A stretch of DNA of 20,000 nucleotides from Proteromonas lacertae (lineage: Eukaryota). The notes under the pieces are model-generated. The model did not search any database, was not told the DNA's origin, and worked only from the letters and a program-made list of their open reading frames with translations. Position numbers and translations under genes: made by a program. Each line of letters begins with the position of its first letter. Position 1 is the first letter of the stretch. This document shows, one piece after another, positions 2,687 to 20,000 of this stretch. The DNA lies in assembly GCA_002245135.1 (NCBI GenBank), contig NGBS01000610.1, positions 56,496 to 76,495 on the forward strand, given 5' to 3'.

Positions 2687-4595
2687 TTAAGCAAATGAAA
2701 AAGAATTACTCAAAGATGTATCTGAAGGGAAAAATTCTTCTTTGTAATTATAATTCAAAGGTAATATCTTCTGTTTCGTATCTACCTTCATATGATTCAC
2801 TATTAATGATGCATAACTACCATCACAATAATCATTAACATTATAATAACTGATTTCTAATTTCTTCTGGAAATTTCTAGTAAATACAGTAACATCACTT
2901 AAATAGTGATTTAATAAAGATTCTAATTCCCAAAGTGAACTATTACCAGCATTTGTATCTTCATCTAATTCTAATGAATAATTATATGGGTCAGACTTAT
3001 ATAAATCATTAACATTGAAGTTAGAGGGTGGTGAAGTAGTATATTCACTTTTATTGTCTTTGTTATCATCATTTTCTTCATCATTATCATCTTCATTATT
3101 TTGTTTATTTTTCAATTTATCAATCTTTTCTATTTTCTTTTTCAATCTATCAAAAAATGATTTCTTTTCATTATCATTATCACGATGTAGTAAACAATAA
3201 GCAGGTTGATGTTTTACAATTAAATTGTATATAACAGGTAATATAAAAAGTAAAATATCAGGTGGTACAAATAATGAAATATGTGACAATTTTTTAATGA
3301 ATGATAAAATCAAATTCGCTGATAAATGAGATGACATTAAAAATTGGTTTAATAAATTTAAAAATTTAGCTTTATTTCTATTTAACAATAATAATCATAA
3401 TAAATATACTTCATCATAAACAAGGAAGGTTCTAATACATGATATAATTGGTTATAAAACAATGGATAATCTAAACCATATTCATTCATTAATATATATA
3501 ATGATTCTAATGACAATACTGAATAATATCCACCAATTGAATAACACCTTGTTAGAAAATCGGATAGAAGAAGTGGATTTAATAGATTATATAATATATC
3601 ATTTGATAATATCTTTAATATTTGTTTGTATTTATTCTATTCATTATATATATTTATTTATACTTGAGATAATGGAAGTGATAAATATGAAATCCAACAA
3701 TTCGAATAGAGTGCTTTAAATGCATTTTGATTGAGGAATTTCAATGTTGATTTTTTTATATCTTGAGGTGGTAAATCAATCTATATAATATAATATAATA
3801 TAATATAATACAAATATCAGTGGTAATTCATCTTCTTTTAATATAGTTTGTTTGATTGTTAAAAGTTTATATCCATTTTCTATTATTCTTTCAATATCAT
3901 AAATATCTTTATTATTTTTGCTATTTTCTTCAGTTTTTCTTTTCTTTTTTGGATTTTCTATCACTTGTGATGATTGGAATTTTTCTAAAATATTATAATA
4001 ATATTTTAATGCATAATATTTGATATCTTCATATTTATTATAATATTCGTTATAAAATATCACTCTACAACTTTCAGGTAATGGATTAAATTCATCTTTT
4101 TTAAACATACTAGTTACTATTGTATTGAGTATCTCATTTTCGTCGTATTTTGCAGAATCAGTCATTTTACTTAAAAATGTCAATAATACACGTATTGATG
4201 CTTCTTGTAGTTTGGTTGAATGAGTAGCAGTAAGGAAAGATGCTAGTATTTCAGTACATTTATTATATCTTTCTTGTAACCATGATCTGTATTTTTCTAA
4301 TGCATCTTTCAGTGTACCTGATACTTTGTTAGACACGGAGCTCATTGATCCTTTGTCGAATAGATGTACAAAAGTATTTCTACAAGCATTTAATGCATGG
4401 AATGCTATATTCTAGTAAAACAATAATATAAAATGACATACTTCATCATCATTACTTAAATATTCAATCAATTGGTTTAAGTCTAAATGATATTGTGAAT
4501 CTTATACTATTAGTATTTTGAACACTTGTTTTGATGTTCTCTTCACATTTTAAAATGATTGATTTAATTTTTGGATCGATATTGCTTGTTGACAT
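2687..4595 (-). CDS. NOC4: Nucleolar complex protein 4 (CBF/Mak21 family, 40S biogenesis), about 587 aa, 5 introns
   Basis: GT-AG introns at 4483-4507, 4412-4441, 3781-3811, 3637-3663 and 3378-3409 give a continuous frame from MSTSNIDPK. Contains NPLLLSDFLTRCYSIGG, LDYPLFYNQLY, SSHLS..LI.SFIKKL and SSLWEL..L..HY, which are typical of Noc4. Confidence 0.9.
3781..3811 (-). repeat. NOC4 intron composed almost entirely of a (TTATA)n microsatellite
   Basis: Minus strand reads GTATTATATTATATTATATTATATTATATAG. Confidence 0.85.
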
Positions 4596-4665: not shown

Positions 4666-6237
4666 ATGAGTGAAAACCCAGCTAAAAGAAGAAAAACTTC
4701 AGAAACAGAATCTGTAGAGCCATCCTCAATGATCATAACATTGAAAGGACCAGATGTATCAAACCATTTTTTAAAATCTTTATAGGGTGAGATAACAGGG
4801 CCACAAATGGATTTGCCATTATCCACAACGCCACAACAATTGGAACAACTATGTAATCAGTTATTAAACAATGAAGAATCAGTTCCATATGCTTTCTATG
4901 TAGGTGAAGATGAAATAATGACATCAATTCAGCAAATTGTCGATCAAAATGTATGTATATTCATTAAAATTAACATAAATAGAATATATCAACAGAAACT
5001 GTATTAGAAATAAGATATCAACCTCTGTCAATATTCCGTGTAATGCCTGTCACTCGTTGCACAGATACATTACCTGGTCATACAGAAGCAGTATTACATG
5101 TTTCATTTAGTCCAAATGGCAAAATCCTTGGTTCTGGAGGAGGTGATTGTGTAGTACGATTTTGGGATGTATATACATCAACTCCATTATTTGAATGTAA
5201 AGGACATAAAAATCACGTATTATCAACAGCTTGGTCTCCATCTGGACATTATTTCATTTCTGGTGATAGAAATGGAGCAATAATCGTATGGAACCCTAAA
5301 GCAGGTAAGAAGAAAAACCCTGTACTACTCGGACACAAAGGATATATCACTTATTTATGTTTTGAACCATTACATTTAAACAAAAAGTGTAATCGTTTTG
5401 CATCAAGTTCTAAAGATGCCACTGTTATTATATGGAATATTTCTACCATGTCTAAAGAATTTCTAATATCAGGTCATTCATCTTCGATTGAATGTGTGAA
5501 ATGGGGAGGAGAAGGATTGATTTATACAGCTTCTAGGGATAGAATTATTAGAGTATGGGATGCTGAAGAGAAAGGAAAACTGGTAAGAACCCTAGTGGGA
5601 CATGCACATAGAATTAATTCATTAGCTTTGAATACAGATTATATATTGAAAAGAGGTGGATATACACATGAAGATAAAGTATATAACAACAATAATATAA
5701 ACAATAATACGATAGATGAAGAAATGTATAATGATTCTGTAAAATTATATACAGAGTATATGAAAGGTAAAAATGAGTTGTTAGTAAGTTGTAGTGATGA
5801 TTTTACTCTTTATTTATGGAAGCCAACAATCGATAAACAGCCAATCTGTCGAATGACAGGACATCAACAGTTAGTTAATCATATATCATTTTCACCAGAT
5901 GGAAGATATATAGCAAGCGCTAGTTTTGATAAAAAAATAAAAATTTGGGATGGAACAACAGGTAAATTCATTAATACACTGACAGGTCATGTTGGTGCTG
6001 TATATCAAGTATGTTGGTCTGCGGATAGTAGATTATTAGCATCTGCATCAAAAGATAGTACTGTAAAGTTGTGGAAACCATCTAATTCTCATGCTTTCTG
6101 CACTTTACCAGGTCATGCTGATGAAGTATATACATTGGATTGGAGTGGTGATGGAGAAAGAGTAGCAAGTGGTAGTAAAGATAGAACTATAAAAATGTAT
6201 ATCATATTTATTTTTATTGAATAGATGGAGGCATTAG
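4666..6237 (+). CDS. NLE1: Notchless/Rsa4 WD40 ribosome assembly factor (60S biogenesis), about 493 aa, 3 introns
   Basis: Introns 4756-4785, 4951-4982 and 6197-6224. N-terminal NLE/UBL domain (QLEQLCNQLL...PYAFYV, YQPLSIFRVMPVTRC), WD40 repeats with SCSDDFTLYLW and RMTGHQQLVNHISFSPDGRYIASASFDK, and C-terminus IKIWRH*. Confidence 0.96.
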
Positions 6238-6397: not shown

Positions 6398-7092
6398 ATG
6401 AGTGGTAAAGGTATATTGGTTTTTACAAATGAATAGAATTTTTAAAATGTATGAGTGGAATTAATCAAATGGGAAAAGTAATACAATCTAAGTATATTTT
6501 TTATTATGAGGATATATAGGGTAGATAAAATTAATATAAGATGCAATAAATTGAAAAAATTGTATCAAGCTGCTCCACAAGCATATAAGAAGACTTATGA
6601 AGATTTGATCAAACAACAGCTATTTCACTTGAAAAAATGAAAGAAATATTAACCAATATAAACAAATTATCTTCAACAATTGAAACATGTAATGAAAAAA
6701 TAAAAAATACAACAAAATTAAAATTAAAAGAATCAGAAATAAGCGAAATGGCAAAAGAAATTAATGTGGATGTAAAAACTTTTAATGCTACATATAGTAA
6801 GGTAAAAGACTTAGCTGAAGAAATTGATGGAAATATAAATGTGAATGTAGAAGGAGAGATGAATGAAGAATTTAACGAATTTATGAATAGTGAGGCAAGT
6901 GCTTCTGATGTTATTAACGATCCGACCAAATTAATGGAAGAAGCGAATAATATGTTAAGTTCTTTAGGAGTAAGTGGTATGTTACCAACAGAAGTTAATG
7001 ACCCTACTCCAGCGCTTGCAGCTGTTCCATCTGCAGTTCCAGAAACTAAACATGAAGAGAAGAAAGAAGTTGCAGTAGATTTTGACTATTAA
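6398..7092 (+). CDS. Coiled-coil paralog A (putative divergent ESCRT-III/Snf7-like), about 213 aa; needs one extra base near 6618
   Basis: Introns 6411-6436 and 6492-6519. The frame breaks at aaacaaca^gctatt; adding one A gives LIKQQAISLEKMKE. Basic helical N-half, acidic C-half and a Pro-rich tail. IQSKVDKIN resembles IQSKIEKLN of paralog F. Confidence 0.65.
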
Positions 7093-7260
7093 TTGATTAG
7101 AAATTGTTTATTGATAGTTTATTATTTTTATGTAAAATATGTATTTGTTTATGTTAATAATTTGATTGATATAAAGCATTTTAAAGAGAAAAACAACCAT
7201 AATATTCTAATATATTCAAATTACAATATACATAAATAATTCACAAAAAATGACTAATAC

Positions 7261-7839
7261 TTATGTCTTCATAGCTATACCTTGAATTGGTGGGAGATGA
7301 CCAGCTGTTTAATATAATATAACATAATATATACGCTGTTCTGGAATATTTGTTGAGATTCTTCTTGGACTTAATATTCTTGACTTTCTAGGAGTCATCC
7401 ATGCAGCAGCAGGTGGTAAAACATCGCTTTCATTTATCATAGGTATTAATTCTATTGGTCTATTGGCTCTAACAGGTTGATATCTTGGTGATCTTCTAAA
7501 TAAACTAACTATATTATAATTATACATAGGGGATTTACTCAAATTAACATTATTATATCTCGGAGAATGTTTGGGTATTGGCGAAGGATTTTTCTTTCTA
7601 TCATTTTCAAATTTTTGTAATATTGGTAAATACTGGATATAAAAAAATAAAGATACTTTAGATCCTTCCGTAGAACATTTATTTCTAAGCCAAGCTTCAT
7701 AATGATCTTTATCTCGATTTACATAACTAATTCAATTAAATGAACACATATACTAGTCTTCTCTTTGAATATTATTGGCTACAAACTGAGAAGAACGATT
7801 GTCATATGTTGTATGGGAAATAATTCCTGTATGTAACAT
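7261..7839 (-). CDS. Small basic SP/TP-rich hypothetical protein (gene B), about 155 aa
   Basis: ATG at 7839. Introns 7727-7753 and 7305-7334 are required for frame; 7633-7656 and 7496-7525 are in-frame and probable. Ends HLPPIQGIAMKT*. Several SPR/TPRK motifs; no family recognised. Confidence 0.65.
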
Positions 7840-7895
7840 ATTAAATAAAAAAAGAAAAAAAAACTGATTGAAAATCTATCCGTTTCAAATTTAAA

Positions 7896-8464
7896 ATGTA
7901 AGTTTTTTCTTTTTTAATCGTTAATAGGAGTAAAATATCAGCAGCAGATGCTATAAAATCAAATAATGAGAAGTATAAGGATGATAAAACAAAGTATATT
8001 TAGTTTTTACACTAGTTCAAAGAGCATCTGATAGTTATTTTGATATAATATACAATGAAAAGTTAATCAAGAAAAATCCAAATGATCCACAGAAAGTATT
8101 GTGGGAAACAAAAATAGCTGATCAAAGATCAGCATTTGTAAGGTCAAAAGAAAATGCTAAAAAGGTAATCAATAATATGGGGGTTGTGTATGAGATAGAG
8201 TATAAATTTTGATTGTATTATAAAAATAGTGATAAAAAAGAATTGTTAGATGCAATGAAAAAATACTGTGATGAAATTGATGAAGTAATGAAGTATATTT
8301 AATATTTGATGATTATATGTAATAGAGAATTTCGTGACTTACAAAAAAGTGATGATAAGAATAAAGATGTAATAGAAGGAATAATGAGTGATGTACAAGA
8401 AGGAACTGATGCAATGAACGAATTATTGAATATACAAATGAATGAAGAAGTAGAATATAATTAA
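7896..8464 (+). CDS. Coiled-coil paralog C, about 148 aa, 4 introns, start codon split by an intron
   Basis: AT|intron 7898-7927|G. Further introns 7994-8022 (AAG acceptor), 8200-8229 and 8293-8325, with a 63-nt exon at 8230-8292. Protein MSKISAADAIKS...KDVIEGIMSDVQEGTDAMNELLNIQMNEEVEYN*. Confidence 0.7.
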
Positions 8465-8473
8465 TCACTGTAT

Positions 8474-9129
8474 TTATGCTGTTTCTAATGCTTTTACTCT
8501 TTGTGGTTGTGCTGCAGCTGGTGCTATTGTATCTGTGACATTTAAATTAGCCATTAAAGCAGCAATGTTGAAATCAGCAGCTTCTTCTGGTTTATCTGAT
8601 AAAACTGCTGTATTTTCTGTTCTTTCCATTTCTGTACTAAGTTCTTGAATTTGTTCAGAATTCTCTTGTATTTCATCCAACAATTTGTCTAATTCTTGAT
8701 CAACCTTTTGTTGTTTTCTCAATTCTCTATTTTAACGTATTTTATATAAAATAAACATACTCTAATATCGGTTGAACATTAGTGATGTATTGTTCATTAA
8801 CATCTGTGAAAACTTGTTGATCTCTGAATTATTAAGGAATTTAACAAGTATAAAAATCAAAAATGATATAATAGCTGTTGAGCTGTACACATCATTTTAT
8901 GTATCCTTGGTAATTCAGTCTGTATTTTCTTTAATTTATCTATGTTAGCATTGATAGCATTTTGAGCATTTGCATCTGGATTTGGATTTTTTGCAAGTAT
9001 ATTTTGAAGTAATTTCTGAGTATTTCTGTATCTAATCAAATATAAAAACTAAAAATACTCTTCCATCTTTCCATCGAACGTCTTTTTAAGTTCTGCATAC
9101 TTTGATTCTTTATCCACAGGAACAGACAT
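8474..9129 (-). CDS. Coiled-coil paralog D (Snf7/Vps20-like features), about 182 aa, with an AT-AG U12-like intron
   Basis: Introns 9032-9058 (GT-AG), 8824-8869 (ATATCATTT...TTCCTTAAT AATTCAG) and 8727-8760 (GT-AG), with a 63-nt exon at 8761-8823. LDKLLDEIQENSEQIQELS resembles ESCRT-III helix 4. Confidence 0.75.
8824..8869 (-). other. U12-like intron with AT-AG termini (46 nt)
   Basis: Contains an in-frame TGA so it must be removed. Donor ATATCATTTT; branch-point-like TTCCTTAAT is followed by 7 nt ending in CAG. Removal restores the frame (QQLL|DQQVF). Confidence 0.75.
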
Positions 9130-9204
9130 CGTGTAAACAAAATATCAAGTTTTAAAAATCAAAAAAGGTTTGAAAAGCTTGATCTTTCTTTTCTTGATAT
9201 TTTA

Positions 9205-9735
9205 ATGCCTACTCAACAACCACCACCAGTGAATAAAGCTCAGAAACTAGTTCAACAAATTCAATTATTAGAAGAAAATGTAAACCAAAAACTTGACAGG
9301 TATAAAATTTACACTAGTCTCTTGTTATAGACTTGATAAAATCGATGTTGGCATGATTGCTTTAGCTAAAGAAGTAAAACAACCGAATATAACAAAACAA
9401 AAGCAAGATGAGATCGTTCGTCAAATCCAAAGACTTGATATACAAAGAAAAGAAACACAAAAAGGTTTAGTGAATGATATGAATAATTTAACTGCTTTAG
9501 AAAAGGTCCAATATCTTTTTTTAACTAACATCACACATTTTTACACCTTAATTGTATTTAATAACAATTACAATTATGCATTTGCATGCAAAAAGTTTAC
9601 AGAGATAGGCGCATCACTTAAAGAGTATTAATGTTTTCTCTTCTATATTTTAGTGAATTAATCCTTATACAAAAAGCTTCAGAGTTTGCTGAAAGAATAA
9701 ACCAACATACTGAAGCACTTGATGCTGATGTATAG
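9205..9735 (+). CDS. Coiled-coil paralog E, about 139 aa, with an AT-AA U12-like intron
   Basis: Introns 9300-9330, 9511-9561 and 9625-9653; internal exons of 180 and 63 nt. Aligns ungapped with F: KLVQQIQLLEENVNQKLDRL/KIYNQMQVLETNIQSKIEKL and QKGLVNDMNNLTALEKV/QKGLIIDYNTLSSIERI. Confidence 0.75.
9511..9561 (+). other. U12-like intron with probable AT-AA termini (51 nt, in-frame, no stop)
   Basis: Donor ATATCTTTTT and branch-point-like ACCTTAAT (9545-9552). An acceptor at 9561 yields the same 63-nt next exon as C and D. The nearby AC at 9564-9565 is out of frame. Confidence 0.62.
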
Positions 9736-9811
9736 TAATATTAACTAAATATATATCGATTATTATGTGTTTTTGTTATGTTATTTTCGAAATAAGTTTG
9801 ATTCTTGTTTG

Positions 9812-10317
9812 ATGTCCAAATTCTCAAAAAGTGAAAACTACTACTCTGATACTAAAACAGATTCTCCTGTAAAAAATGAAGAAAAAATATATAATCAAAT
9901 GCAAGTTTTAGAAACAAATATACAATCAAAAATTGAAAAGTATATAAACTTAAGATATTATATAATAGACTAAATGATATTTACTTAGAAAAAGTAAAAT
10001 ATGAGAAGACTTGCTTATCAGAAGACAGTACCAAAGAAATTAGAGATAATGCTAAAGAATGCATTTTTAAGCTTGAAAATATGAAAAATGAAGTGCAGAA
10101 AGGATTAATTATAGATTATAATACTCTTAGTTCTATAGAAAGGATATTATATCATTTTTTTACTTTTTGTTTAATCTGTTAGAATTTTTAATATACTATC
10201 GATGATTATATCGTTTCTAAAGTATGTGGAGAGATTTCTATTCTATGCTTAGATTTTAATGAGTATATATATATATATTAAATTTGATATAGAAATATGA
10301 ATAGTTCAAAGGTATAA
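9812..10317 (+). CDS. Coiled-coil paralog F, about 131 aa, with an AT-AT (or AT-AC) U12-like intron
   Basis: Introns 9940-9968, 10149-10199 (or -10196) and 10263-10292; internal exons of 180 and 63 nt. Clear similarity to E. The 3' end at GTA TAA is uncertain because it could be another donor. Confidence 0.72.
10149..10199 (+). other. U12-like intron with AT-AT (51 nt) or AT-AC (48 nt) termini
   Basis: Donor TT|ATATCATTTT is identical to that of D. In-frame TAG at 10180 forces removal, and the nearby GT/AG pairs do not restore the frame. Branch-like TTTTTAAT at 10185-10192. Confidence 0.7.
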
Positions 10318-10756
10318 AATGTTGAATATGATGTTGTTAATGGTGCTCTACCTCTAATTAGTTTTTTTACTTAATTAACTTTTTTATCAAATTAAACACA
10401 TGATATATTCATTATTTACATATTTTTGGAAAGTAAATTTCTGTTAATCAGTATAAAGGATGAATAATATGAATGAAAAAACAGTCGGATATTTTCAAAT
10501 TCTAATTGATTATATTAAACATCATGTATTCGAAAAGTAGAATTCATAAAAGCGATGCTTTTCAGAATAATGTGAAAAATCAAGTTCAAATTTTCAAAAA
10601 TACTTCCGGCTTGAAAATTTTGCACCATTAAATCTTTTCGTTTATTTTAATTCATATTTCTTAAACTTCTTCACGTTTTGTTTAAATATTTAAAGTCAAT
10701 AATATATATTCAGTTTAATTGTTATTTATTATATATGAATACATACTTCTAATACC

Positions 10757-13521
10757 ATGACAACAGTAATAAGGTGGAACGCTTATGCTGTCCTTCAAGA
10801 AATAAAAATTTATATGTCTAGCTTCATTAAATATCAGTTAATACAGAATTTATACGAGTTCGAACAAGATTACTACTCCAAACTTGAGTATTTAATAACA
10901 ATGAATATATCGTAGAATTTTATACAATGAATATTTATTTCCGATTAAAAACGGCAAAATTTTAAGTGAAGTGGATATTAAACAGCTTTTTCTGAATATA
11001 GATAGAATATATCTTCAAGATTTTTTTGTATTTAATATTATTTATTGTATCTGTAGCCACAGTTAGAACATGAATTCGTACATACAGATATGAAAAAGCT
11101 ATCAATAGGTAATTTGTATAAAATGTTTTTAAATTACATCCAAAACTATGTACATTATATGGATATGTATAACCAATCAAAAATGCATCTTACTGTATCA
11201 CTTACATTGATATACATTTCTTTAGAACTTGAAATTAACAGATAATAAATTCACATCATTTTTACATACAAAAAGGCATTTGCCACCTCTAGAGGATCTA
11301 CTAGCACTACCATTTGTTCATATTCCCAAGCTAGAGAGATTTTTTAGACAATTGATCAAAATTACACCAATAAACTCAACAGAATTCTCTTCATTATCAT
11401 TTATATACTACAAAGTGAAACCTATATCAGAGTTTCTAGAGAATTGTGCTGGAAATAACACACATACTGCAGAATTAGTTGAAATTTCAGAAAGATTAAC
11501 ACCAAAAATCAATTTAATAGAAGCTGGTAGATCATTTGTATATATATATATTAATTATAATTATATATAAATAGATAAGAGAAGGACCGTTAATAAAACA
11601 CTGTAGAAACTCACATAAGAAATATTATTTTTTCCTCTTCACAGATATATTATTATATTGTAAGCCAACTTATACAATCTCTGATTTCACATTAGCTGTA
11701 AGGCATGTTATACATTTACACCACGTATATATATATATATTATTATTATTATTGTAGATGGAAGATGATCCTGGAATTCCAACACTTCGAATATTTGGAA
11801 TAGAAAAATCATTTCGTTTAGAATTTCCAACATTAGAAAACAAAATGGAATGGGGTGATTCTATATTAAAATGTATACAGTATTTACAAACAACACAAAG
11901 TGAAACAATCAACAAACCATTCTCACCAATGTTTGATTTAAAATCTGAATCTACAGCTTGTCATGAATGTGATAAACCTTTTAGATCGTTCATTCGATCT
12001 AAATTGTATTGTTATGGTTGTGGACATATATTCTGTGCAGAATGTCTAGAAAAAAATGTAACTTTGTCAAACACTAACAAGCCTAAAATATATCCTTACT
12101 TATGCAGTAATTGTAAAGTGTTATTGAGTAGGAAACAAATGAGAACAAAGCGAGGAAGTCTGCAGATATTAACTAAAGCACATGAGAATGTTAATATTGA
12201 TCAATTTAAACCATTATCTGCCTTTAACATAACCGATGAACAGAATAATATAAATAATAAAACTTGTAGTGATGTATATTATAAATTAAAAATATTACCT
12301 TCAAAAATCAAGTGTAAAAGAATTCATAAGATTATACATTTATGTCATGATAATAGTAAATATATCTTAGAAGATAATAGTCGATATTCATCAAAAGATA
12401 ATTCAGGTGCATTCTCTCCAGCTGATTTACATTTAATCTCCATGCATAGTTCTTCATTCTCATTAGTTAATTCTGATGAAGAAGCATTAACGCCAGTAAA
12501 GAAACCAAGACAACCGAATTATAGACAATCTTCATCCTCTTCTATTAATGCAAGTAATAATTCTCAATTTAAACAACCGACTGTTATAGCATCAGCTCCA
12601 TTACTACCACTCCCTTCCTCCTTATCAGCTACAACCTTTCAACAACAACAGCAACAACAACCACTATCACCAACAGAATCAACTGTTTCAGTGTTTTCAA
12701 CTTCATCTACTTCACATAAATATAAGAACCATCATCACCATCATCATCATTATAACCAACAACAACAACAACTTCAACCACCATCATTATTATCTCAACA
12801 AATACCTTTATCTTCATCCACACCACCAGTCAATAGTAGTAATTTATCTCAATCCGCTAGACTAAGAAGTGATAGTAATGCAAGTAGTCATTCATCAGAT
12901 ATAATGACTTATGGAAGTATGGGAATGATAATGGAGAAGTTTAAACCAAATATATTATTCAATCCAATGTCTAAAATAAAGTGTAAAGTACCATATCAAA
13001 CAATATCTATCAAATCATCACATCATAATAATGGACAAGGAAATACATCTACAACAGGAAGTAGTGTTTTAGATTCAAAATTAAAATCTAATTCATATAT
13101 GAGAAGAACATCTTTATTCAATTCAGCTGAAATGTTTGCAATATCTGCTTCTCATTCTGTAGCACCAACACCATTGATGTCACCAAGAGAATCAATTCCT
13201 TTTAATAGAAGTAAAGATAGAGTGAATAGCTTCGCAGTTGGTAAAACAGTCTCAAAAGAAGAATATGAAGCTTTAAATGCTTTTCAAAGAAGAACTGTTT
13301 CATCTGTACAGGATATCAATGAGAGTTTCCAAATGCCTATTAGTGATGTATCTGCTAGACCTCCAGGTATATCCTATATTCCTCGTCTTTCATCATCTGG
13401 ATCGAATTATATGTTACCTCCCACAGCTCAACTTATAACAACAGATTATAACTTAAATAAATCTAATCCCCCTAAAGTACCTAGTAAAAAGCGAAGGACG
13501 AAGAGTAGAATTGTTAATTAA
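10757..13521 (+). CDS. FGD-like RhoGEF: DH-PH-FYVE-like zinc finger plus a long low-complexity tail, about 868 aa
   Basis: Introns 10888-10915, 11028-11056, 11195-11225, 11538-11574 and 11725-11757. DH: LIQNLYEFEQDYYSKLEIL, IKQLFLNIDRIY, LEDLLALPFVHIPKL. PH: FIREGPLIK..YFFLFTDILLY..KMEW. Eight-Cys finger CHEC..CYGCGHIFCAEC..CSNC. The start codon is uncertain. Confidence 0.85.
12640..12771 (+). repeat. Coding trinucleotide repeats (CAA)n and (CAT)n encoding polyQ and polyH
   Basis: caacaacaacagcaacaacaa, catcatcaccatcatcatcat and caacaacaacaacaa within the RhoGEF tail. Confidence 0.85.
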
Positions 13522-13707: not shown

Positions 13708-14751
13708 ATGTCTAACGGCAGTATAGTTGAAACACTCCCATCTCCTGCAAGCATTAAAACACCCTACTTTATTCAGAATACGAAGAACAAAGAGATCTAT
13801 AATTATCAACAAGTATTAGGTCATGGCTCCTATGGTACAGTATACTTAGCAATAAGTGGAGGAAAGAGTTATGCTTTAAAAAAGTTCATCAATCCTTTTT
13901 TAAGTCTACAAAGAGCTGTTACAACTTATAGAGAGTTATACTTCGCACAACATTTCAATCATCCAAATCTTGTACATTATAAATCAATATTCTTTGATGA
14001 TCGAGATAATCCGAAGGATATATTCGCTCTTTACGATTTCATGGATATGGACCTTAGGTATGTATTAATTTCCCATCAATCTCTTACCCTGTATCATATA
14101 CAGTTCTTCATATATCATCTTCTTTGCGGTGTGAAATACATGCACACAGCAGGAGTTATTCATAGAGACATAAAACCAGAAAATATTTTAATAAATTCAA
14201 ACTGTCAATTGAAACTTGGTGATTATGGAATGTCTAGAGTTCATTTCCCAACACAATACAGTAGTTATATCTGTAGTAGATGGTACAGAGCACCAGAGAT
14301 TCTTTTCTCTATTGATTACACTGAAAGTGTTGATATTTGGGCTGTAGGTTGCATATTAGCTGAATTACTAATCAAACATGTGTTATTTCCAGGGAAATCA
14401 ACCAATCATCAATTACTATTGATATCTGAGTTACTAGGACCACCTAGTAACAACTCTGTAGGTAATGTAAATAACTTAAAGAATGGTGAATGTTTAATTA
14501 ACGACAAATGGTCAGAAACCTTTGAAGGATGTGATCCAGTCGCTTTAAATCTCCTACAGTCGTTATTAGTATGGAATTATACAAAAAGGCCAACTGCATC
14601 ACAGGCATTAAGACATCCTTTCTTCTTCAAAGTGTTTTGCCCATCTTGTGAAAAAGCAGCACCGTTCAAATTACTCGTACCTGTTATTAAGAATTATAAA
14701 ATAGATGAAATTGTTAATAATATGGTATGCTTCATCAATAATTTACAATGA
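13708..14751 (+). CDS. Atypical MAPK-family (CMGC) Ser/Thr kinase, 347 aa, apparently intronless
   Basis: GHGSYGTV, ALKK, RELY, HRDIKPENILINSNCQLKLGDYG and SRWYRAPE. The ERK-like segment SHQSLTLYHIQFFIYHLLCGVKYMHTAGVIH is present. The activation loop has SSY in place of TxY. Confidence 0.88.
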   Translation: MSNGSIVETLPSPASIKTPYFIQNTKNKEIYNYQQVLGHGSYGTVYLAISGGKSYALKKFINPFLSLQRAVTTYRELYFAQHFNHPNLVHYKSIFFDDRDNPKDIFALYDFMDMDLRYVLISHQSLTLYHIQFFIYHLLCGVKYMHTAGVIHRDIKPENILINSNCQLKLGDYGMSRVHFPTQYSSYICSRWYRAPEILFSIDYTESVDIWAVGCILAELLIKHVLFPGKSTNHQLLLISELLGPPSNNSVGNVNNLKNGECLINDKWSETFEGCDPVALNLLQSLLVWNYTKRPTASQALRHPFFFKVFCPSCEKAAPFKLLVPVIKNYKIDEIVNNMVCFINNLQ

Positions 14752-14987: not shown

Positions 14988-17900
14988 ATGTCAGTAGTAT
15001 AACTATACATCAATTTATCTTTTAACTAGCCTGGAAGCGTACCTGCTATGACGCCAGAAGGAAGTCCAAGTGGCTTTCCCTCATCTGTGAAAAAAACATC
15101 TACATTAGTACTCTGTGGTGAAATAGAAAGAGGTAATGTTAGAAGACCCACACATCATAAATCACAGCAAACTGCATTTGATAAAGTATTGAAATAATTA
15201 TTAATACATAATAGCTTGGCTTAGGAACAGTCATAGGTCAAAGATTCGTAATTGAGAGTTCTGTTGGCTCAGGATCTTTTGGAGAAAGTATTGAAATACT
15301 TTGTTATATTTTAAATAGTTATATTAGCAACAGATAAAACAACAGACAACAAAGTAGCAATTAAATGCGAACCAATGAATATATCTCGTCCACAATTACG
15401 AGGAGAAGGCAAATTTCTTGCAAATTTAAAAGATTGTAAGGGTTTTACTAGCGTTTTATGGACAGGATCAGAATTAGGTTATTATTTCTTAGCTATGGAT
15501 TTATTAGGTCAAAGTTTAGATGCTCTCTTTGAAAAGAATAATAAAAAGTTTTCCTTAAAGACTGTATTACTTTTAGTTGACCAAATGTTAATTCGAATTG
15601 AAGATTTACACGAACATGACTATATTCATAGAGATTTAAAACCAGAAGTATTATTATTCCATATTATATATTATAAAATAGAATTGGATGATGGGTTTAG
15701 GAGAAAATGCAGATTTATTATACTTAATCGATTTTGGTTTATCTAAGTCCTACAGGAATCAAAGAACACATCAACATATACCATTCAGAGAAGATTGTAG
15801 TTTAACAGGAACAGCTCGATATTGTAGTATAAATGCACATCATAGTGAACAATCTAGAAGAGATGATTTAGAATCATTAGGATATATATTAATATACTTT
15901 CTAAAAGGTCATTTACCATGGCAAGGGATTAGCAGAGGAGTAGCAACCAGTCATATGTCAATTATTGAACAAACGAAAATAAATACAAGTGTCGATTCAT
16001 TATGTGCAGATTTACCAATAGAATTTAAGAAATATATAGAATATTGTCGAAGTCTAGAATTCCAAACAAAACCAGATTATAAGTATTTAAGAAGAATGTT
16101 CCAGAAATTGGCTCTTAAAAACGGATATAAATATGATGATATATATGATTGGTCAGAATCTGGAAAGAAGCCTGTTATACATCCATCTATTAACAATATG
16201 TTACAAACACTACCTGTAATGCCTTCTAATAATAATAATAATATAAACAACAACAATAATGAAAATATTAATGGTGAAGGAAATGAAATGAATCAACCTT
16301 TTGATGAAGATGAATTATGTGATAAATGTCCATTATGTCTATGGAGAAGTATATATATATATATATATATTCATTATAATTATTAAATAAATAGCTCCTG
16401 AAAATGCCTCTGAAAACAATACTCAAGATGCTGAGCAATACTTCCCATTACATGAAGGAATAATTGGCTGTGATAAAGATAAAGCAAATATTACAATTGA
16501 TGGTATAGAATATGCGCATGCTAGATTGACATGGGATCAAGTCAAAGGAGCTTATTGCTTACAAGATAATAAGAGTGAAACAGGTACATTTTTATTATTA
16601 AGTTCAGAAAGAAGATGTAGAGAGTATATTTATTATTTTATATTATTGTTTTTTAAATAGTACAATTGAATTAAAGAAAGGTGATAAATTCTATATAAGT
16701 CAAGGAGTAGAAGTGGAAGTATTACATATTGATTATGCGACAATCACATTACCAGAAGAAATAGTGTATAAAATGCATCCAACATCTTATCAATATAATG
16801 CAACTGAATGTAGTTTTAATCCATCATCAAACCCCAAAAATTGTGGGAAAACAAAACCCCATATCCGTTTCAATGATGAAATAAATGACAGTGATGGTAA
16901 TAAAATGGAATTACACGAAGAAGAAGAAGTAATAGAAAATATGCAATATCATTTATCAGCAAAATTAGCAGTAAGAGTTGGTAAAACATTTAATGATGAG
17001 AGTGAGATTATTCAAGCACAGATCATTGATGTTACAAGAGAAGTTACATTGGGAAGTTTATCAACAAATGCAGTGCAATTACCAGAAGAATGTGCTGGAG
17101 TTCATTGTAAGATTTCAGTATTAAATGATAAATTATTATTAAAAGATGTATATAATATATATATTATTATATAAATAGTTGGCAGTAGGTGATCCTGGTG
17201 GTACAAAACTATTTTTATCACGTCCAATTGAACTATTTGAAAGAGATATCATCGTATTTGGTGAATCAATAGAACTAGGAGTAATGCCAGTAGCTGATTC
17301 TCCAGTATTAGAGTGTGTATGGGAAGAATGTGCTGTTAGATTAACACCAATTAGAAAATCAAAAAGAACACCGATTTATTCAAAAGAAGCACAAATGGAT
17401 AAAACCATTATATTCAGAGTTCCAAAAGATGGTGAAGTTATTATTGGTAGATCAGAAGATAATCATATTCATTTCCAGATGTATATAAATTATTATTTAT
17501 TTAAATAGTATAAATTATCAGATAGACATGCTTGTATGTATTTTGAGCCATTAGAAAAGAAATTTTATTTAGAATCATTAGTCATGTCTCGTTCACAAAT
17601 TACTGAATTGTTATTAGGAAGAGCAACATCATCTACCAAATCACCTTACAAGCTAAACAAAGATGATGTATTTTGTATTAGTGGTTCACAATTCCAAGTG
17701 ATTGGTATGAAGGTAGAAACAAAAGAAGAAGTTGAAAAAAGAGAACAATTGGCATTTGATAGAGCAGAGAAGTTATGGAAAGATGTTTCACTTCTTTCTT
17801 TATTACCAAAAGAAATATTCACCAAAGTAGCTGATGCTTTAAAACCAGTAACATTTTCAGAAGGTGAATATTTATTACAACAAGGTGAAATTGGTACAAT

Positions 17901-19262
17901 CTTTTATATTATTAAGAAAGGAAAAGTGGATATTATCTATACATCCAAAGGTGAAAAGACTTTATTAAAAACATGTGGTCCAAATGATGCTTTAGGTGAA
18001 TTATCAATTATCAATGGAACAACTTATTCAGCATCAGCAATAGCAACTACAGAAACAGTTGAATGTATGGCTTTAGATAGTGTTTCGTTTTTAAATTACG
18101 TTGGTCCTTATATTGGTACAATCGGTGAAGCAGCTAGAAAGAGAGATATGGATACTTATGTTGATTTATTGTCACAATTGAATTCTTTAATACATTACCA
18201 CATGATGAAATAGTGAAGATTGCTAATGTTTGTCATCCTAAAACATTCCATGATAAGGAATATCTTACTAAAGAAGGTGAAACTGGTCAGAATTTAGATT
18301 TCTTTGTAATTATCAGTGGACAGGTTAGAATTACTAAAAGTATTGATTTAGAAAATACAATTACAATGTTATCAAATGGTGATTATTTAGGTGAAAAAGC
18401 ATTATTTACAGGTAATCCAAGAAATGCAAATGCCATAGCCGTTGGTTTAGTGGAAACATTATCATTAGAAAGATCTGATTTTGATTTATACTTAAAAGAT
18501 CATTTGTTGAAATATTTAGGTGAAAATGATAAGACTGAAGTTATAAATAGTAGCAGAGGATTGCAAGATAGTGGAATAGCAAAACCAATCAATTCATATA
18601 CACAGCAACTAAAAACAAGAAGATTAAGTGAACAAAAACCATTAGAAATTCAACAACCTGTAATTAAACCACCAATAAGGAATACATTAGCAAATATTCC
18701 AGAAACACCTGAAGAAGATGACGAAGAAGGAGGAGGTGGAGGAGATGTGGATGATGAAGAAGTAGATCATGCATCTAATCCAAGTTACTTTAGTGATGAA
18801 GAATTACAAATAGAAAATGAAAATGATATAGAAATATTTGAATCATGTCAGGGTTAAAGAAATCACATTATATCATATTAAAAGTATTATCAGGACCATT
18901 AAGACAAGCAATATATGTTATGGAAGGAGATTTAATTACAATTGGTACTGGAGTATGTACAATATCTATAAATGATTCATCATTGAATTCTTTACATTGT
19001 TCAATAGAATATAGAGAAAATGGATATTGGCTATCAGATTCTGATAGTGATAGTGGAACATTTTTACAATTAGGTTAGGTTTAGCTTTTCCTGTTCAAGT
19101 TGGTGATTCATTCAGATTAGTAATACAGAATTAACCATTTTAGGTAAAACAAAGACAATTGAGAAATCAACTGTTATTCAAGAACCACCACCTCGTAGTC
19201 AAAATAGTGTGATTAATATTCCACCAATATACACTCCAGGTCCTTGTTGTGAAGTTATGTAA
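14988..19262 (+). CDS. Casein kinase 1 fused to FHA x3, cNMP-binding x2, a fourth FHA and a C-terminal CCEVM; about 1336 aa after 8 introns and 5 single-base corrections
   Basis: Introns 14997-15029, 15186-15214, 15288-15318, 15648-15681, 16349-16394, 16624-16660, 17148-17178 and 17481-17508. CK1 motifs: GSGSFGE, VAIKCE, HRDLKPEN, IDFGLSK, TGTARY, EQSRRDDLESLGY. FHA-like: HARL..LQDNKSETGTF, IIGRSEDN..SDRHA, HCSI..LSDSDSDSGTF. cNMP: LGELSII and YLGEKALFTGNPRNA. Confidence 0.82.
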
Positions 19263-19367
19263 TTAATTAATTATTTATCTTTAATATGTAAATTTTCTGA
19301 ATAATCAGTGTTTTTTAAGATCATATATATTGTTATTAATAATGTGTGTTTCTTTTTAATGTTATTC

Positions 19368-19465
19368 TGGGTTCGATAAAGGGCGTCCTTTCGAATTTTG
19401 CCCTATTTTTGCCCCTTTTTTTTCAGCTGAAAAGAAGCCTGCCCCTTACTGCTCGGGCATAGTAA
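19368..19465. other. GC-richer intergenic island with short hairpins and repeated TGCCC/GGGC motifs (possible regulatory element or small RNA)
   Basis: Stem TTCG..AAAGG-gcgt-CCTTT-CGAA, palindrome TTTTCAGCTGAAAA and stem TGCCC...GGGCA, in an otherwise very AT-rich region. No family recognised. Confidence 0.3.
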
Positions 19466-20000
19466 TATTACCATGTGTTATGCTGTAGTATATTTTTTCT
19501 GATTTTTTGTTATAACTTTTCCATATTATCATCTAGATATACTAACATATGTTAAAAAGGATATATTATTGTGTATTATAGCATAATAGTCATCTACTTT
19601 TCTTATGATTATATAATATCATATGTTTATGCATATATACTAATTATATAGAATATACATACTGTATATCATATTCTGATATGCATATATATACATTATG
19701 TACATTTCAAGGTGATTGACGTCACTGAACATAAATGAAATTTATATAATAAATAATTTTGTATATTACACATATATCATATAGATATATTAAGAAGTAT
19801 AGCTATAGAATGGGTATTTTCAGTTAATGATAATCAATAGTACTTGTTATGATAATAACATAATATATTTCATAAACTAATAGAAAAACTATTTCAAAAT
19901 TACTATTTAGTATATTTTGCATACTACTTAATGTATTTCAAGCAATTATTTGAATATTTAGAAAATGGTTTGAGAAATTTCGAGCTATCATTTTGCATTT

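What the first reader, a model, noticed from the sequence alone, without database searches (positions are those of the whole stretch)
14988..19262. Unusual CK1-FHA-FHA-FHA-cNMP-cNMP-FHA-CaaX fusion kinase
Splicing across 16349-16394 joins a CK1 catalytic domain to FHA-like domains and tandem cyclic-nucleotide-binding domains like those of PKA-R or PKG. CK1s are classically second-messenger independent. The second cNMP domain keeps the phosphate-binding cassette (GEKAL...PRNA), while the first has Tyr at the Arg position (GELSII..TTYSA). Inference: a cAMP/cGMP-gated, phospho-sensing, membrane-anchored CK1. I do not know this architecture from model organisms, but cannot exclude homologs in other stramenopiles.
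Basis: partly seen in the sequence, partly recalled or inferred. Interest (0 to 1): 0.72.

Follow-up and report, generated by a model that had tools for sequence, protein, structure and literature searches.

The report
Casein kinase fused to cAMP/cGMP sensor
A gene of what is likely a Blastocystis-type gut protist likely joins a casein kinase 1 enzyme to four FHA docking modules, two cyclic-nucleotide-binding domains and a predicted lipid anchor, which would make it a membrane-bound casein kinase predicted to respond to cAMP or cGMP, a control not described for this kinase family in the papers searched.

Summary
The domain order is confirmed (CK1, FHA x3, CNB x2, FHA, CCaaX; about 1336 aa, 9 exons). 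One gene is likely (about 0.9), though no cDNA spans 16349-16394. Two independently assembled orthologues (89% and 67%) keep an invariant 16-residue motif up to the same donor. One of them has no Met in the linker. The Blastocystis-type 3'-end element follows 6 of 7 gene ends but is absent at the junction.

A near-identical Logan ORF reads through four of them with no decay, so they are likely assembly errors.

New context: the FHA3-CNB2-FHA-CCaaX scaffold is older and has no kinase in Cantina marsupialis, so CK1 was likely grafted onto it. The grafted CK1 keeps its catalytic motifs but lost phosphate-pocket lysines K171, K221 and K224, each Lys in 114 of 115 other CK1s. Only CNB-B keeps the phosphate Arg. 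Only FHA3 keeps GR plus SxxH, so 'phospho-sensing' is weak.

Cyclic-nucleotide control of the kinase is inferred, not shown (about 0.5; direct catalytic gating about 0.35). Six literature searches found no such CK1.

The parts
14988..19262 (+). Fusion gene, 9 exons: 14988-14996, 15030-15185, 15215-15287, 15319-15647, 15682-16348, 16395-16623, 16661-17147, 17179-17480, 17509-19262; about 1336 aa with X at five breaks. Start codon and intron 1 are inferred only.
15221..16155 (+). CK1-family kinase domain (aa 58-347): GSGSFG, VAIK, HRDLKPEN, DFG, SIN and R178 kept; K171>C, K217>S, T220>V, K221>A, K224>H, Y225>M and a 1-aa deletion before EQSRRDD
16156..16299 (+). Asn-rich variable linker, open in the kinase frame; no 3'-end element; the orthologue P0042 has no Met here
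16300..16347 (+). Invariant motif FDEDELCDKCPLCLWR, still in the kinase exon; its end aligns with the start of FHA1 in Cantina (putative FHA1 strand 1)
   Evidence: the strand assignment is not confirmed
16349..16394 (+). Intron 5 (46 nt), joining the kinase exon to the FHA1 core; the orthologue ORFs P0041 and P0042 turn intron-like at the same point
16333..16733 (+). FHA1 (aa 407-512), lacks the pThr-binding Arg and Ser
16953..17292 (+). FHA2 (aa 586-688), lacks the Arg and Ser
17323..17715 (+). FHA3 (aa 699-820) with a conserved basic loop (RKSKR); has GR and SxxH, lacks NG
17767..18111 (+). CNB-A; cassette 17995-18033 has Tyr at the Arg209 position, also in the divergent lineage (P0008)
18160..18524 (+). 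CNB-B; canonical cassette 18390-18428 (G-E-K-A...P-R-N-A)
18612..18806 (+). Disordered linker with conserved R[RK]LS (18612-18644, PKA-type site; consensus recalled) and SY[FL]SDEEL (18783-18806) islands
18860..19151 (+). FHA4 (aa 1203-1300), lacks the Arg and Ser
19245..19259 (+). C-terminal CCEVM (CaaX box plus adjacent Cys); predicted prenylation and palmitoylation
17466..19122 (+). Stretch holding five single-base frame breaks (about 17474, 18184, 18846, 19074, 19121), each beside a repeated base; likely assembly errors
19309..19316 (+). Blastocystis-type downstream gene element (TGTTTTTT), 47 nt after the stop

Best explanation
This is likely one gene for a single-chain kinase, predicted to be membrane-anchored, in which a divergent CK1 was likely grafted onto an older FHA-FHA-FHA-CNB-CNB-FHA-CCaaX scaffold, and cAMP or cGMP binding to CNB-B is predicted to control the kinase's output. 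Steps: (1) SHOWN in sequence: domain order, intact catalytic motifs, loss of K171/K221/K224/Y225, a canonical cassette only in CNB-B, GR plus SxxH only in FHA3, and a CCxxx end. (2) STRONGLY INFERRED: splicing of 16349-16394 and an intact 3' half, the five breaks being assembly errors. (3) INFERRED: prenylation plus palmitoylation holds the protein at a membrane. (4) INFERRED: with the K224 pocket gone, the kinase relies less on pS-x-x-S priming and on phospho-tail autoinhibition, and the FHA array supplies substrate or partner docking instead. (5) INFERRED, weakest: ligand binding at CNB-B moves the CNB-A/B helical unit as in PKA-R and PKG, with CNB-A as a ligand-blind relay, and this releases or repositions the kinase. 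cAMP versus cGMP cannot be called from the R-N cassette.
For: Fusion: P0041 (89%) and P0042 (67%) keep the 16-aa motif unchanged while the linker before it diverges, then run into different intron-like tails at the same point. P0042 has 0 Met in the linker, and the first Met downstream of the intron is aa 526, past FHA1. A 3'-end element with at most 1 mismatch follows 6 of 7 gene ends and occurs in 3 of 71 coding blocks, but not in 16130-16420, and no poly(A)-made stop is in register. blastp to the kinase-less Cantina protein starts at aa 400, inside the kinase exon. P0042 (kinase exon) and P0018 (FHA3 exon) report the same longest contig, 6796 nt. Breaks: P0002 and P0005 read through four of them to the CaaX end; P0011 shows Pro-Asp at the intron-8 donor; the window differs from P0002 at 4 of 314 and 3 of 159 residues, against 11 of 315 between two intact ORFs. 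Older scaffold: P0023 (Cantina, EukProt) and P0022 (JGI) have the same order and CC end with no kinase match. Kinase pocket: position 224 is H or Q in 6 of 6 lineage sequences, and K in 114 and R in 1 of 115 others; K224A/D compromises pSxxS phosphorylation in CK1 delta/epsilon (PMC7012598, passages). CNB-B fits the canonical cassette GE[LIV]AL..[PV]R[ANQV] except Lys at the third place, as Arg is there in parasite PKGs (PMC2246266, passages). The AF2 model of P0002 folds both CNBs at pLDDT about 80-90 and matches PKA-R/PKG tandems.
Against: No transcript or protein spans intron 5, and the shared contig length is indirect. Three tests that the motif is FHA1 strand 1 were inconclusive or failed. 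The Arg is not kept consistently: Cantina has it in CNB-A only, and P0022 in neither domain, so the scaffold can persist without canonical cNMP binding. The kinase lies about 490 aa before CNB-A with three FHA domains between, and no R[RK]x[ST] site lies between the kinase and CNB-A, unlike PKG or PKA-R. For the two more distant gut lineages (P0003/P0011 group; P0019 and P0045/P0046) fusion is not shown, and P0045/P0046 end before any motif. The window's CaaX has Glu at a1, which is atypical (recalled).
Confidence: 0.5

Rival explanations
1. The fusion is real but the CK1 is constitutive. The FHA/CNB/CCaaX part is a membrane scaffold that only positions the kinase and its partners; the CNB domains are structural or sense a ligand without touching kinase output.
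For: The scaffold exists without a kinase (P0022, P0023). The cassette Arg is kept in different domains or in none. Three of 4 FHA domains lack Arg and Ser. No basic inhibitor site precedes CNB-A.
Against: The CNB-B cassette (LTGNPRNA) is unchanged between lineages only about 54% identical overall. The kinase surface changed in a lineage-specific way, which suggests co-adaptation (inference).
Confidence: 0.36
2. Two neighbouring genes: a CK1 that ends at the TAA at 16384-16386 or at a poly(A)-made stop, and a separate FHA-CNB-CaaX gene like that of Cantina.
For: Blastocystis makes stops by polyadenylation, and annotators are warned about wrongly joined genes (PMC12129017 and PMC5608401, passages). 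The kinase-less form exists. Intron 5 is the longest intron tabulated. No cDNA is in hand.
Against: No 3'-end element and no in-register poly(A) stop at the junction, against 6 of 7 real ends. No start codon for FHA1. The linker is open for 67 codons at 28% GC, against at most 47 codons and 18-23% GC in 5 intergenic stretches. The tail after the motif differs in length and sequence in 3 of 3 sequences.
Confidence: 0.08
3. The 3' half is a decaying pseudogene in this organism, and the product is a truncated CK1-FHA1-FHA2 protein (stop at aa 766 as assembled).
For: Five frame breaks lie within 1.65 kb, while two neighbouring genes (493 and 553 aa) splice with none.
Against: All five are -1 breaks beside repeated bases and no nonsense codon remains once they are bridged. 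There is no excess of substitutions (4 of 314, 3 of 159). A 91%-identical ORF is intact.
Confidence: 0.06

Closest known systems
CK1 delta/epsilon/alpha, plant CKL, yeast Hrr25 (PDB 1cki, 3sv0, 4xhl)
   Same: Kinase domain: orthologue P0042 scores 265-282 bits, against 200-223 for CK1 gamma/Yck, 138-144 for TTBK and 86-105 for VRK. It has HRDxKPxN, the SIN motif and R178.
   Different: About 990 aa of accessory domains, where CK1s are described as single-domain (PMC3019232 and PMC4177888, passages). K171, K221, K224 and Y225 are lost, there is a 1-aa deletion, and the clade is long-branched.
Yeast Yck1/Yck2 and CK1 gamma/Gilgamesh (membrane CK1s)
   Same: A CK1 with C-terminal cysteines for lipid anchoring (their palmitoylation is recalled, from no call).
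   Different: The kinase is closer to CK1 delta than to gamma/Yck. The CC end came with the scaffold, since the kinase-less P0022 and P0023 have it too.
PKG, including Plasmodium PKG (PDB 5dyk)
   Same: Kinase and tandem CNB domains in one chain; best PDB sequence match for the CNB part.
   Different: The kinase is CK1, not AGC, and lies N-terminal. The cassette has R-N, not the R-T that gives cGMP selectivity (PMC3080414, passages). FHA domains and CaaX are added.
PKA regulatory subunits (6rsx, 1cx4), including kinetoplastid nucleoside-binding PKA-R
   Same: Tandem CNB fold (Foldseek E 1e-22). CNB-A lacks the Arg, as in trypanosome PKA-R.
   Different: No basic inhibitor site before CNB-A. 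The Ala202 position is Ser, not the Glu that defines nucleoside binding (PMC10959531, passages).
Kinase-less FHA3-CNB2-FHA-CCxxx proteins (Cantina marsupialis EP01029_P019487 = P0023; JGI P0022)
   Same: Same domain order, basic loop in FHA3 and CC end; 24% identity over aa 400-1081.
   Different: No kinase. The Arg is in CNB-A (Cantina) or absent (P0022). No description was found in the searches made.
FHA-containing kinases (Rad53, Mek1; Chk2 and Dun1 recalled), oomycete/plant PP2C-cNMP-kinase, bacterial cNMP-FHA proteins
   Same: A kinase with FHA (one search lists their FHA structures), a kinase with cNMP domains, or cNMP with FHA.
   Different: Other kinase groups or no kinase. In P. infestans cNMP domains occur only on AGC and CAMK kinases.

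Membership tests
CK1 family | Catalytic domain closest to CK1, above TTBK and VRK | tested here: met
   run with orthologue P0042 (67% identical to the window over aa 101-412)
CK1 family | Catalytic motifs (Gly loop, VAIK, HRDxKPxN, DFG) and SIN in place of APE | tested here: met
   the lack of APE in CK1 is
CK1 family (canonical) | Anion site 1, R178 plus K224, for primed substrates | tested here: not met
   R178 is kept; position 224 is H or Q in 6 of 6 against K or R in 115 of 115. Filed as a divergent CK1-family domain, not a canonical CK1.
CK1 family (canonical) | No accessory domains | tested here: not met
CK1 family | Kinase activity on acidic or primed substrates | not testable with these tools
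   needs an assay
PKG | AGC kinase domain C-terminal to the CNB domains | tested here: not met
   the kinase is CK1 and N-terminal
PKG | Thr or Ser after the cassette Arg (cGMP selectivity) | tested here: not met
   Asn in CNB-B
PKA regulatory subunit | Tandem CNB-A/CNB-B | tested here: met
PKA regulatory subunit | Basic inhibitor site just before CNB-A | tested here: not met
   R[RK]x[ST] matches lie only at aa 41 and aa 1122; the D/D domain was not tested separately, and Pfam gave no such hit on the exon pieces
Canonical CNB domain | Cassette with Glu and Arg, CNB-B | tested here: met
Canonical CNB domain | Cassette with Glu and Arg, CNB-A | tested here: not met
   Tyr in the window and in P0008
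Canonical CNB domain | Binding of cAMP or cGMP | not testable with these tools
   needs a binding assay
Kinetoplastid nucleoside-binding CNB | Glu at the Ala202 position | tested here: not met
   Ser in CNB-A
FHA fold | Profile and fold match, four repeats | tested here: met
pThr-binding FHA | GR, SxxH and NG motifs (PMC3162421, passages) | tested here: not met
   FHA1, 2 and 4 lack Arg and Ser; FHA3 has GR and SxxH but not NG
CaaX-prenylated proteins | Cys fourth from the C-terminus | tested here: met
   5 of 5 C-termini seen (window, P0002, P0004, P0022, P0023), each with a second Cys before it; P0008 ends at an intron and was not counted
CaaX-prenylated proteins | Actual prenylation and membrane location | not testable with these tools
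   needs labelling or fractionation

The most novel reading that the evidence does not exclude
The first cyclic-nucleotide-gated casein kinase 1. A PKG-like single-chain switch evolved independently when CK1 fused to an old stramenopile FHA/CNB membrane scaffold, trading its own phosphate-priming pocket for FHA docking and cNMP control.
Probability: 0.35. Interest if true: 0.78.

Novelty: new variant of a known kind. Interest (0 to 1): 0.6.

Why it matters
CK1s are described as single-domain kinases, and in the one stramenopile kinome passage read, cNMP-binding domains sit only on AGC and CAMK kinases. A CK1 wired to a CNB tandem would be an independent invention of PKG-type logic on an unrelated kinase. 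It is also a natural experiment on the CK1 phosphate pocket, because K171, K221, K224 and Y225, studied in clock biology, are all replaced together. The kinase-less Cantina homologue gives a before-and-after pair for how a signalling scaffold acquires a catalytic domain. One binding assay and one kinase assay would test it.

Tried and rejected
No RNA holder was listed, so no reads were laid; this is no evidence on expression.

The JGI metagenome scan gave 2 loci from 190 pattern matches, at 30% identity over a CNB stretch only. They were not examined further and not used.

Tests that the motif before intron 5 is FHA1 strand 1:
- The HMM score gain was nil: 42.3 bits with the motif, 42.9 without; 105 of 500 shuffles reached it.
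- A 7-column PSSM picked an off-register block, ranked the true strand first in only 1 of 3 positive controls, and 1747 of 2000 shuffles reached the real best score.
- AF2 of P0017 had pLDDT below 50 at residues 1-19.
The assignment therefore rests on the blastp and MAFFT alignments only.

The alternative in-frame 45-nt intron 17481-17525 was rejected: it would delete the Ser of FHA3's SxxH, and the homologue ORFs break at Asp at the same donor.

Complex prediction of kinase with CNB tandem was not available, so there is no verdict. The ESM Atlas gave only bacterial cNMP/FHA clusters for the Cantina scaffold (best 0.91) and did not answer for the kinase.

The CK1 tree is a quick tree of 53 rows (52 of the 120 hits plus the window; the careful search did not finish). 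It groups the window with P0041/42/45/46 at SH-aLRT 97, with a long-branch warning, and cannot name the donor CK1.

No Rfam or tRNA hit in the window. No earlier scan findings.

Nucleoside-type CNB-A, PKG membership and PKA-R membership were rejected on residues.
Full report
CONTEXT. The window is eukaryotic, about 28% GC (mean), gene-dense, with 27-46 nt GTA...TAG introns (15 tabulated). An element within one mismatch of TGTTTGTT lies within 110 nt after 6 of 7 inferred stop codons and in 3 of 71 coding blocks. That element and introns of about 30 nt are Blastocystis features (PMC5608401 and PMC12129017, passages), and the best named homologue is from Cantina marsupialis. I therefore infer a Blastocystis-type stramenopile. 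Its GC lies between the published ranges (21-23% and 39-55%), and no call named the organism.

OBSERVATION. Eight introns give a frame open from the ATG at 14988 through the kinase, FHA1 and FHA2. Pfam finds Pkinase, two FHA and two cNMP domains on 11 exon pieces. An HMM from 14 non-window FHA repeats finds four FHA domains. Homologous ORFs that lack an intron confirm the joins at intron 4 (P0042) and at introns 6 and 7 (P0011). Introns 2 and 3 rest on CK1 motifs staying in frame; intron 1 and the start are inferred only.

As assembled the spliced ORF stops at aa 766. Five -1 breaks (about 17474, 18184, 18846, 19074, 19121), each beside a repeated base, separate the rest. With X at each, the model is 1336 aa with a single terminal stop. 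The Logan ORFs P0002 and P0005 (575 aa, 91% identical) run through the last four breaks to a CCSTM end. P0011, P0012, P0018, P0019 and P0035 all reach an Asp at the intron-8 donor, a frame the window has lost. The window differs from P0002 at 4 of 314 and 3 of 159 aligned residues, fewer than two intact ORFs differ from each other (11 of 315). The variable linker aa 1092-1174 was left out of this count. Two neighbours splice without breaks, so the errors are local. Assembly error is much likelier than decay.

IS IT ONE GENE? No sequence in hand spans intron 5, so the evidence is indirect.
(a) The best two hits to the kinase C-lobe exon, P0041 (89%) and P0042 (67%), keep FDEDELCDKCPLCLWR unchanged after a diverged linker and then run into unlike Ile/Tyr/Phe tails, the pattern of a shared donor. 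A third close hit, P0043, leaves the frame before the linker and is uninformative.
(b) A separate downstream gene has no start. The first Met after the intron is aa 526, beyond FHA1, and the P0042 linker has no Met.
(c) A poly(A)-made stop, a known trap in Blastocystis annotation, was tested at every T-starting codon from 16132 to 16386. No element closer than 3 mismatches is in register, and the best 8-mer in 16130-16420 has 2 mismatches and lies inside the kinase.
(d) The linker is open for 67 codons at 28% GC, against 34-47 codons and 18-23% GC in 5 intergenic stretches.
(e) blastp to the Cantina protein begins at aa 400, upstream of the intron, and MAFFT places PLCLWR in the first-strand column of 18 repeats. 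Three independent tests of that strand assignment were inconclusive or failed.
(f) The kinase-exon cluster P0042 and the FHA3-exon cluster P0018 report the same longest contig, 6796 nt, which is a hint only.
I put one gene at about 0.9.

DISTRIBUTION AND ORIGIN. A profile of the FHA1-3 region against 1.84 billion representatives gave 11 hits; 10 were looked up: 7 Logan fragments, 1 JGI and 2 EukProt, none from NCBI. Two are full-length scaffolds with the order FHA-FHA-FHA-CNB-CNB-FHA and a CCxxx end: P0023 (Cantina, transcriptome, 1567 aa) and P0022 (JGI, 1268 aa). Neither has a kinase. P0023 starts with Met about 35 aa before FHA1, but its ORF type was cut off in the output; P0022 could have unseen upstream exons. 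P0025 (Colponema) is a generic two-FHA protein. P0017, P0020 and P0021 are fragments whose upstream DNA is unknown. Logan ORF pieces fall into a near-identical group (89-100%), a 67-72% group, a 54-65% group and a 52% group. The fusion is indicated for the first two only. The kinases P0045 and P0046 share the lineage's 1-aa deletion and group with it but end at a likely intron. The simplest history is gain of CK1 by an older scaffold within the gut lineage; with no rooted test and two outgroups this is inference. No annotated NCBI or UniRef orthologue appeared, which is weak evidence of absence.

ANATOMY.
Kinase: by sequence it is a CK1, closest to delta/epsilon/alpha (via P0042), with all catalytic motifs. 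Among the 120 listed hits plus the window, the 6 lineage sequences have H/Q at 224, A/P/Q at 221, M at 225, C/S at 171 and a 1-aa deletion. The 115 others have K in 114 and R in 1 at 224, K in 114 at 221, Y in 114 at 225, K in 114 at 171, and no deletion in the 114 that could be scored (numbering from the 1cki alignment). R178 and K224 form site 1, and K224A/D compromises pSxxS phosphorylation (PMC7012598, passages).
FHA: pThr binding needs GR, SxxH and NG (PMC3162421, passages). Only FHA3 has the first two, and its Ser is absent in 3 of 3 outgroup FHA3s.
CNB: B fits the canonical cassette, which allows Asn after Arg (PMC2246266, passages). A has Tyr in both lineages seen, without the Glu of nucleoside-binding PKA-R. 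Cantina keeps Arg in A only and P0022 in neither. AF2 folds both CNBs confidently, FHA4 poorly and the linker as disordered. Foldseek matches PKA-R and PKG tandems, with high rmsd, so the A/B orientation is not reliable.
Linker and tail: the linker keeps R[RK]LS and SY[FL]SDEEL islands across lineages. All 5 C-termini seen end in CCxxx.

MECHANISM. Best reading (0.5): a lipid-anchored single-chain kinase whose output is controlled by cAMP or cGMP at CNB-B, relayed through a ligand-blind CNB-A, with FHA docking replacing the lost priming pocket. Direct gating of catalysis is about 0.35; the rest is control through docking or position. The main rival (0.36) is a constitutive CK1 on a passive scaffold. 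It is favoured by the uneven retention of the Arg, the 490-aa distance between kinase and CNB-A, and the lack of a basic inhibitor site before CNB-A. Two genes (0.08) and a pseudogene 3' half (0.06) are unlikely.

LITERATURE. Six searches of the held library listed no paper whose title or abstract start describes a CK1 with FHA or cNMP domains; most listed papers were seen as listings only. Passages read: PMC3019232 (P. infestans CK1s have no additional domains; cNMP only on AGC and CAMK), PMC4177888 (CK1 single-domain), PMC5608401 (Blastocystis kinome; 0 occurrences of CK1, FHA, cAMP or cyclic in the main text), PMC12129017 (0 occurrences of kinase), PMC3681718, PMC4143559, PMC9794997, PMC3080414 and PMC10959531. 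No supplements were read; gene tables of the Blastocystis genome papers could hold an orthologue, and subscription papers were not searched. Yck/CK1-gamma palmitoylation, the PKA site consensus, CaaX rules and Chk2/Dun1 are recalled, from no call.

VERDICT. A real, conserved and apparently undescribed kinase architecture, with a kinase-less relative that points to its origin and a kinase surface changed in step with the fusion. The regulatory claim is plausible and easy to test, but it is not shown. New variant of a known kind; interest 0.6.

Noticed in passing
window 13708-14751 (+): Intronless MAPK-like kinase directly upstream (best PDB matches plant MPK4 and ERK5); its activation loop has S-S-Y where MAPKs have T-x-Y.
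   Followed up: partly
window 2-2620 (-): Intronless ORF of more than 870 aa running off the window, with a signal-like N-terminus and a HExxHxxGLxH zinc motif; weak Pfam M12/M10 peptidase hits below cut-off. Unusual in an intron-rich genome; a possible lateral acquisition, untested.
   Followed up: partly
window 16647-16654 (intron 6): A TGTTTTTT 3'-end-type element inside intron 6; 4 of the 5 plus-strand copies follow gene ends. It could allow a short CK1-plus-partial-FHA1 transcript, or be just the intron's T-tract.
   Followed up: no
window 10759-13521 (+): RhoGEF-fragment/FYVE gene, FGD-like; my trial splicing did not give an open frame, so the model is incomplete.
   Followed up: partly
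window 2687-4467 (-) and 4667-6237 (+): Divergent pair of ribosome-biogenesis genes: CBF/Mak21 (NOC4-like, name recalled) and a WD40 protein (Notchless-like, name recalled); both splice cleanly.
   Followed up: partly
window 6398-10360: Cluster of small coiled-coil genes with weak Snf7 and syntaxin-like Pfam hits below cut-off.
   Followed up: no
P0022, P0023 (not in the window): The kinase-less FHA3-CNB2-FHA-CCxxx scaffold is itself a protein family that was not found in the papers searched, with a strongly conserved basic loop in FHA3.
   Followed up: partly
window 19380-19470: GC-richer patch in otherwise AT-rich DNA after the gene; no Rfam or tRNA hit.
   Followed up: partly
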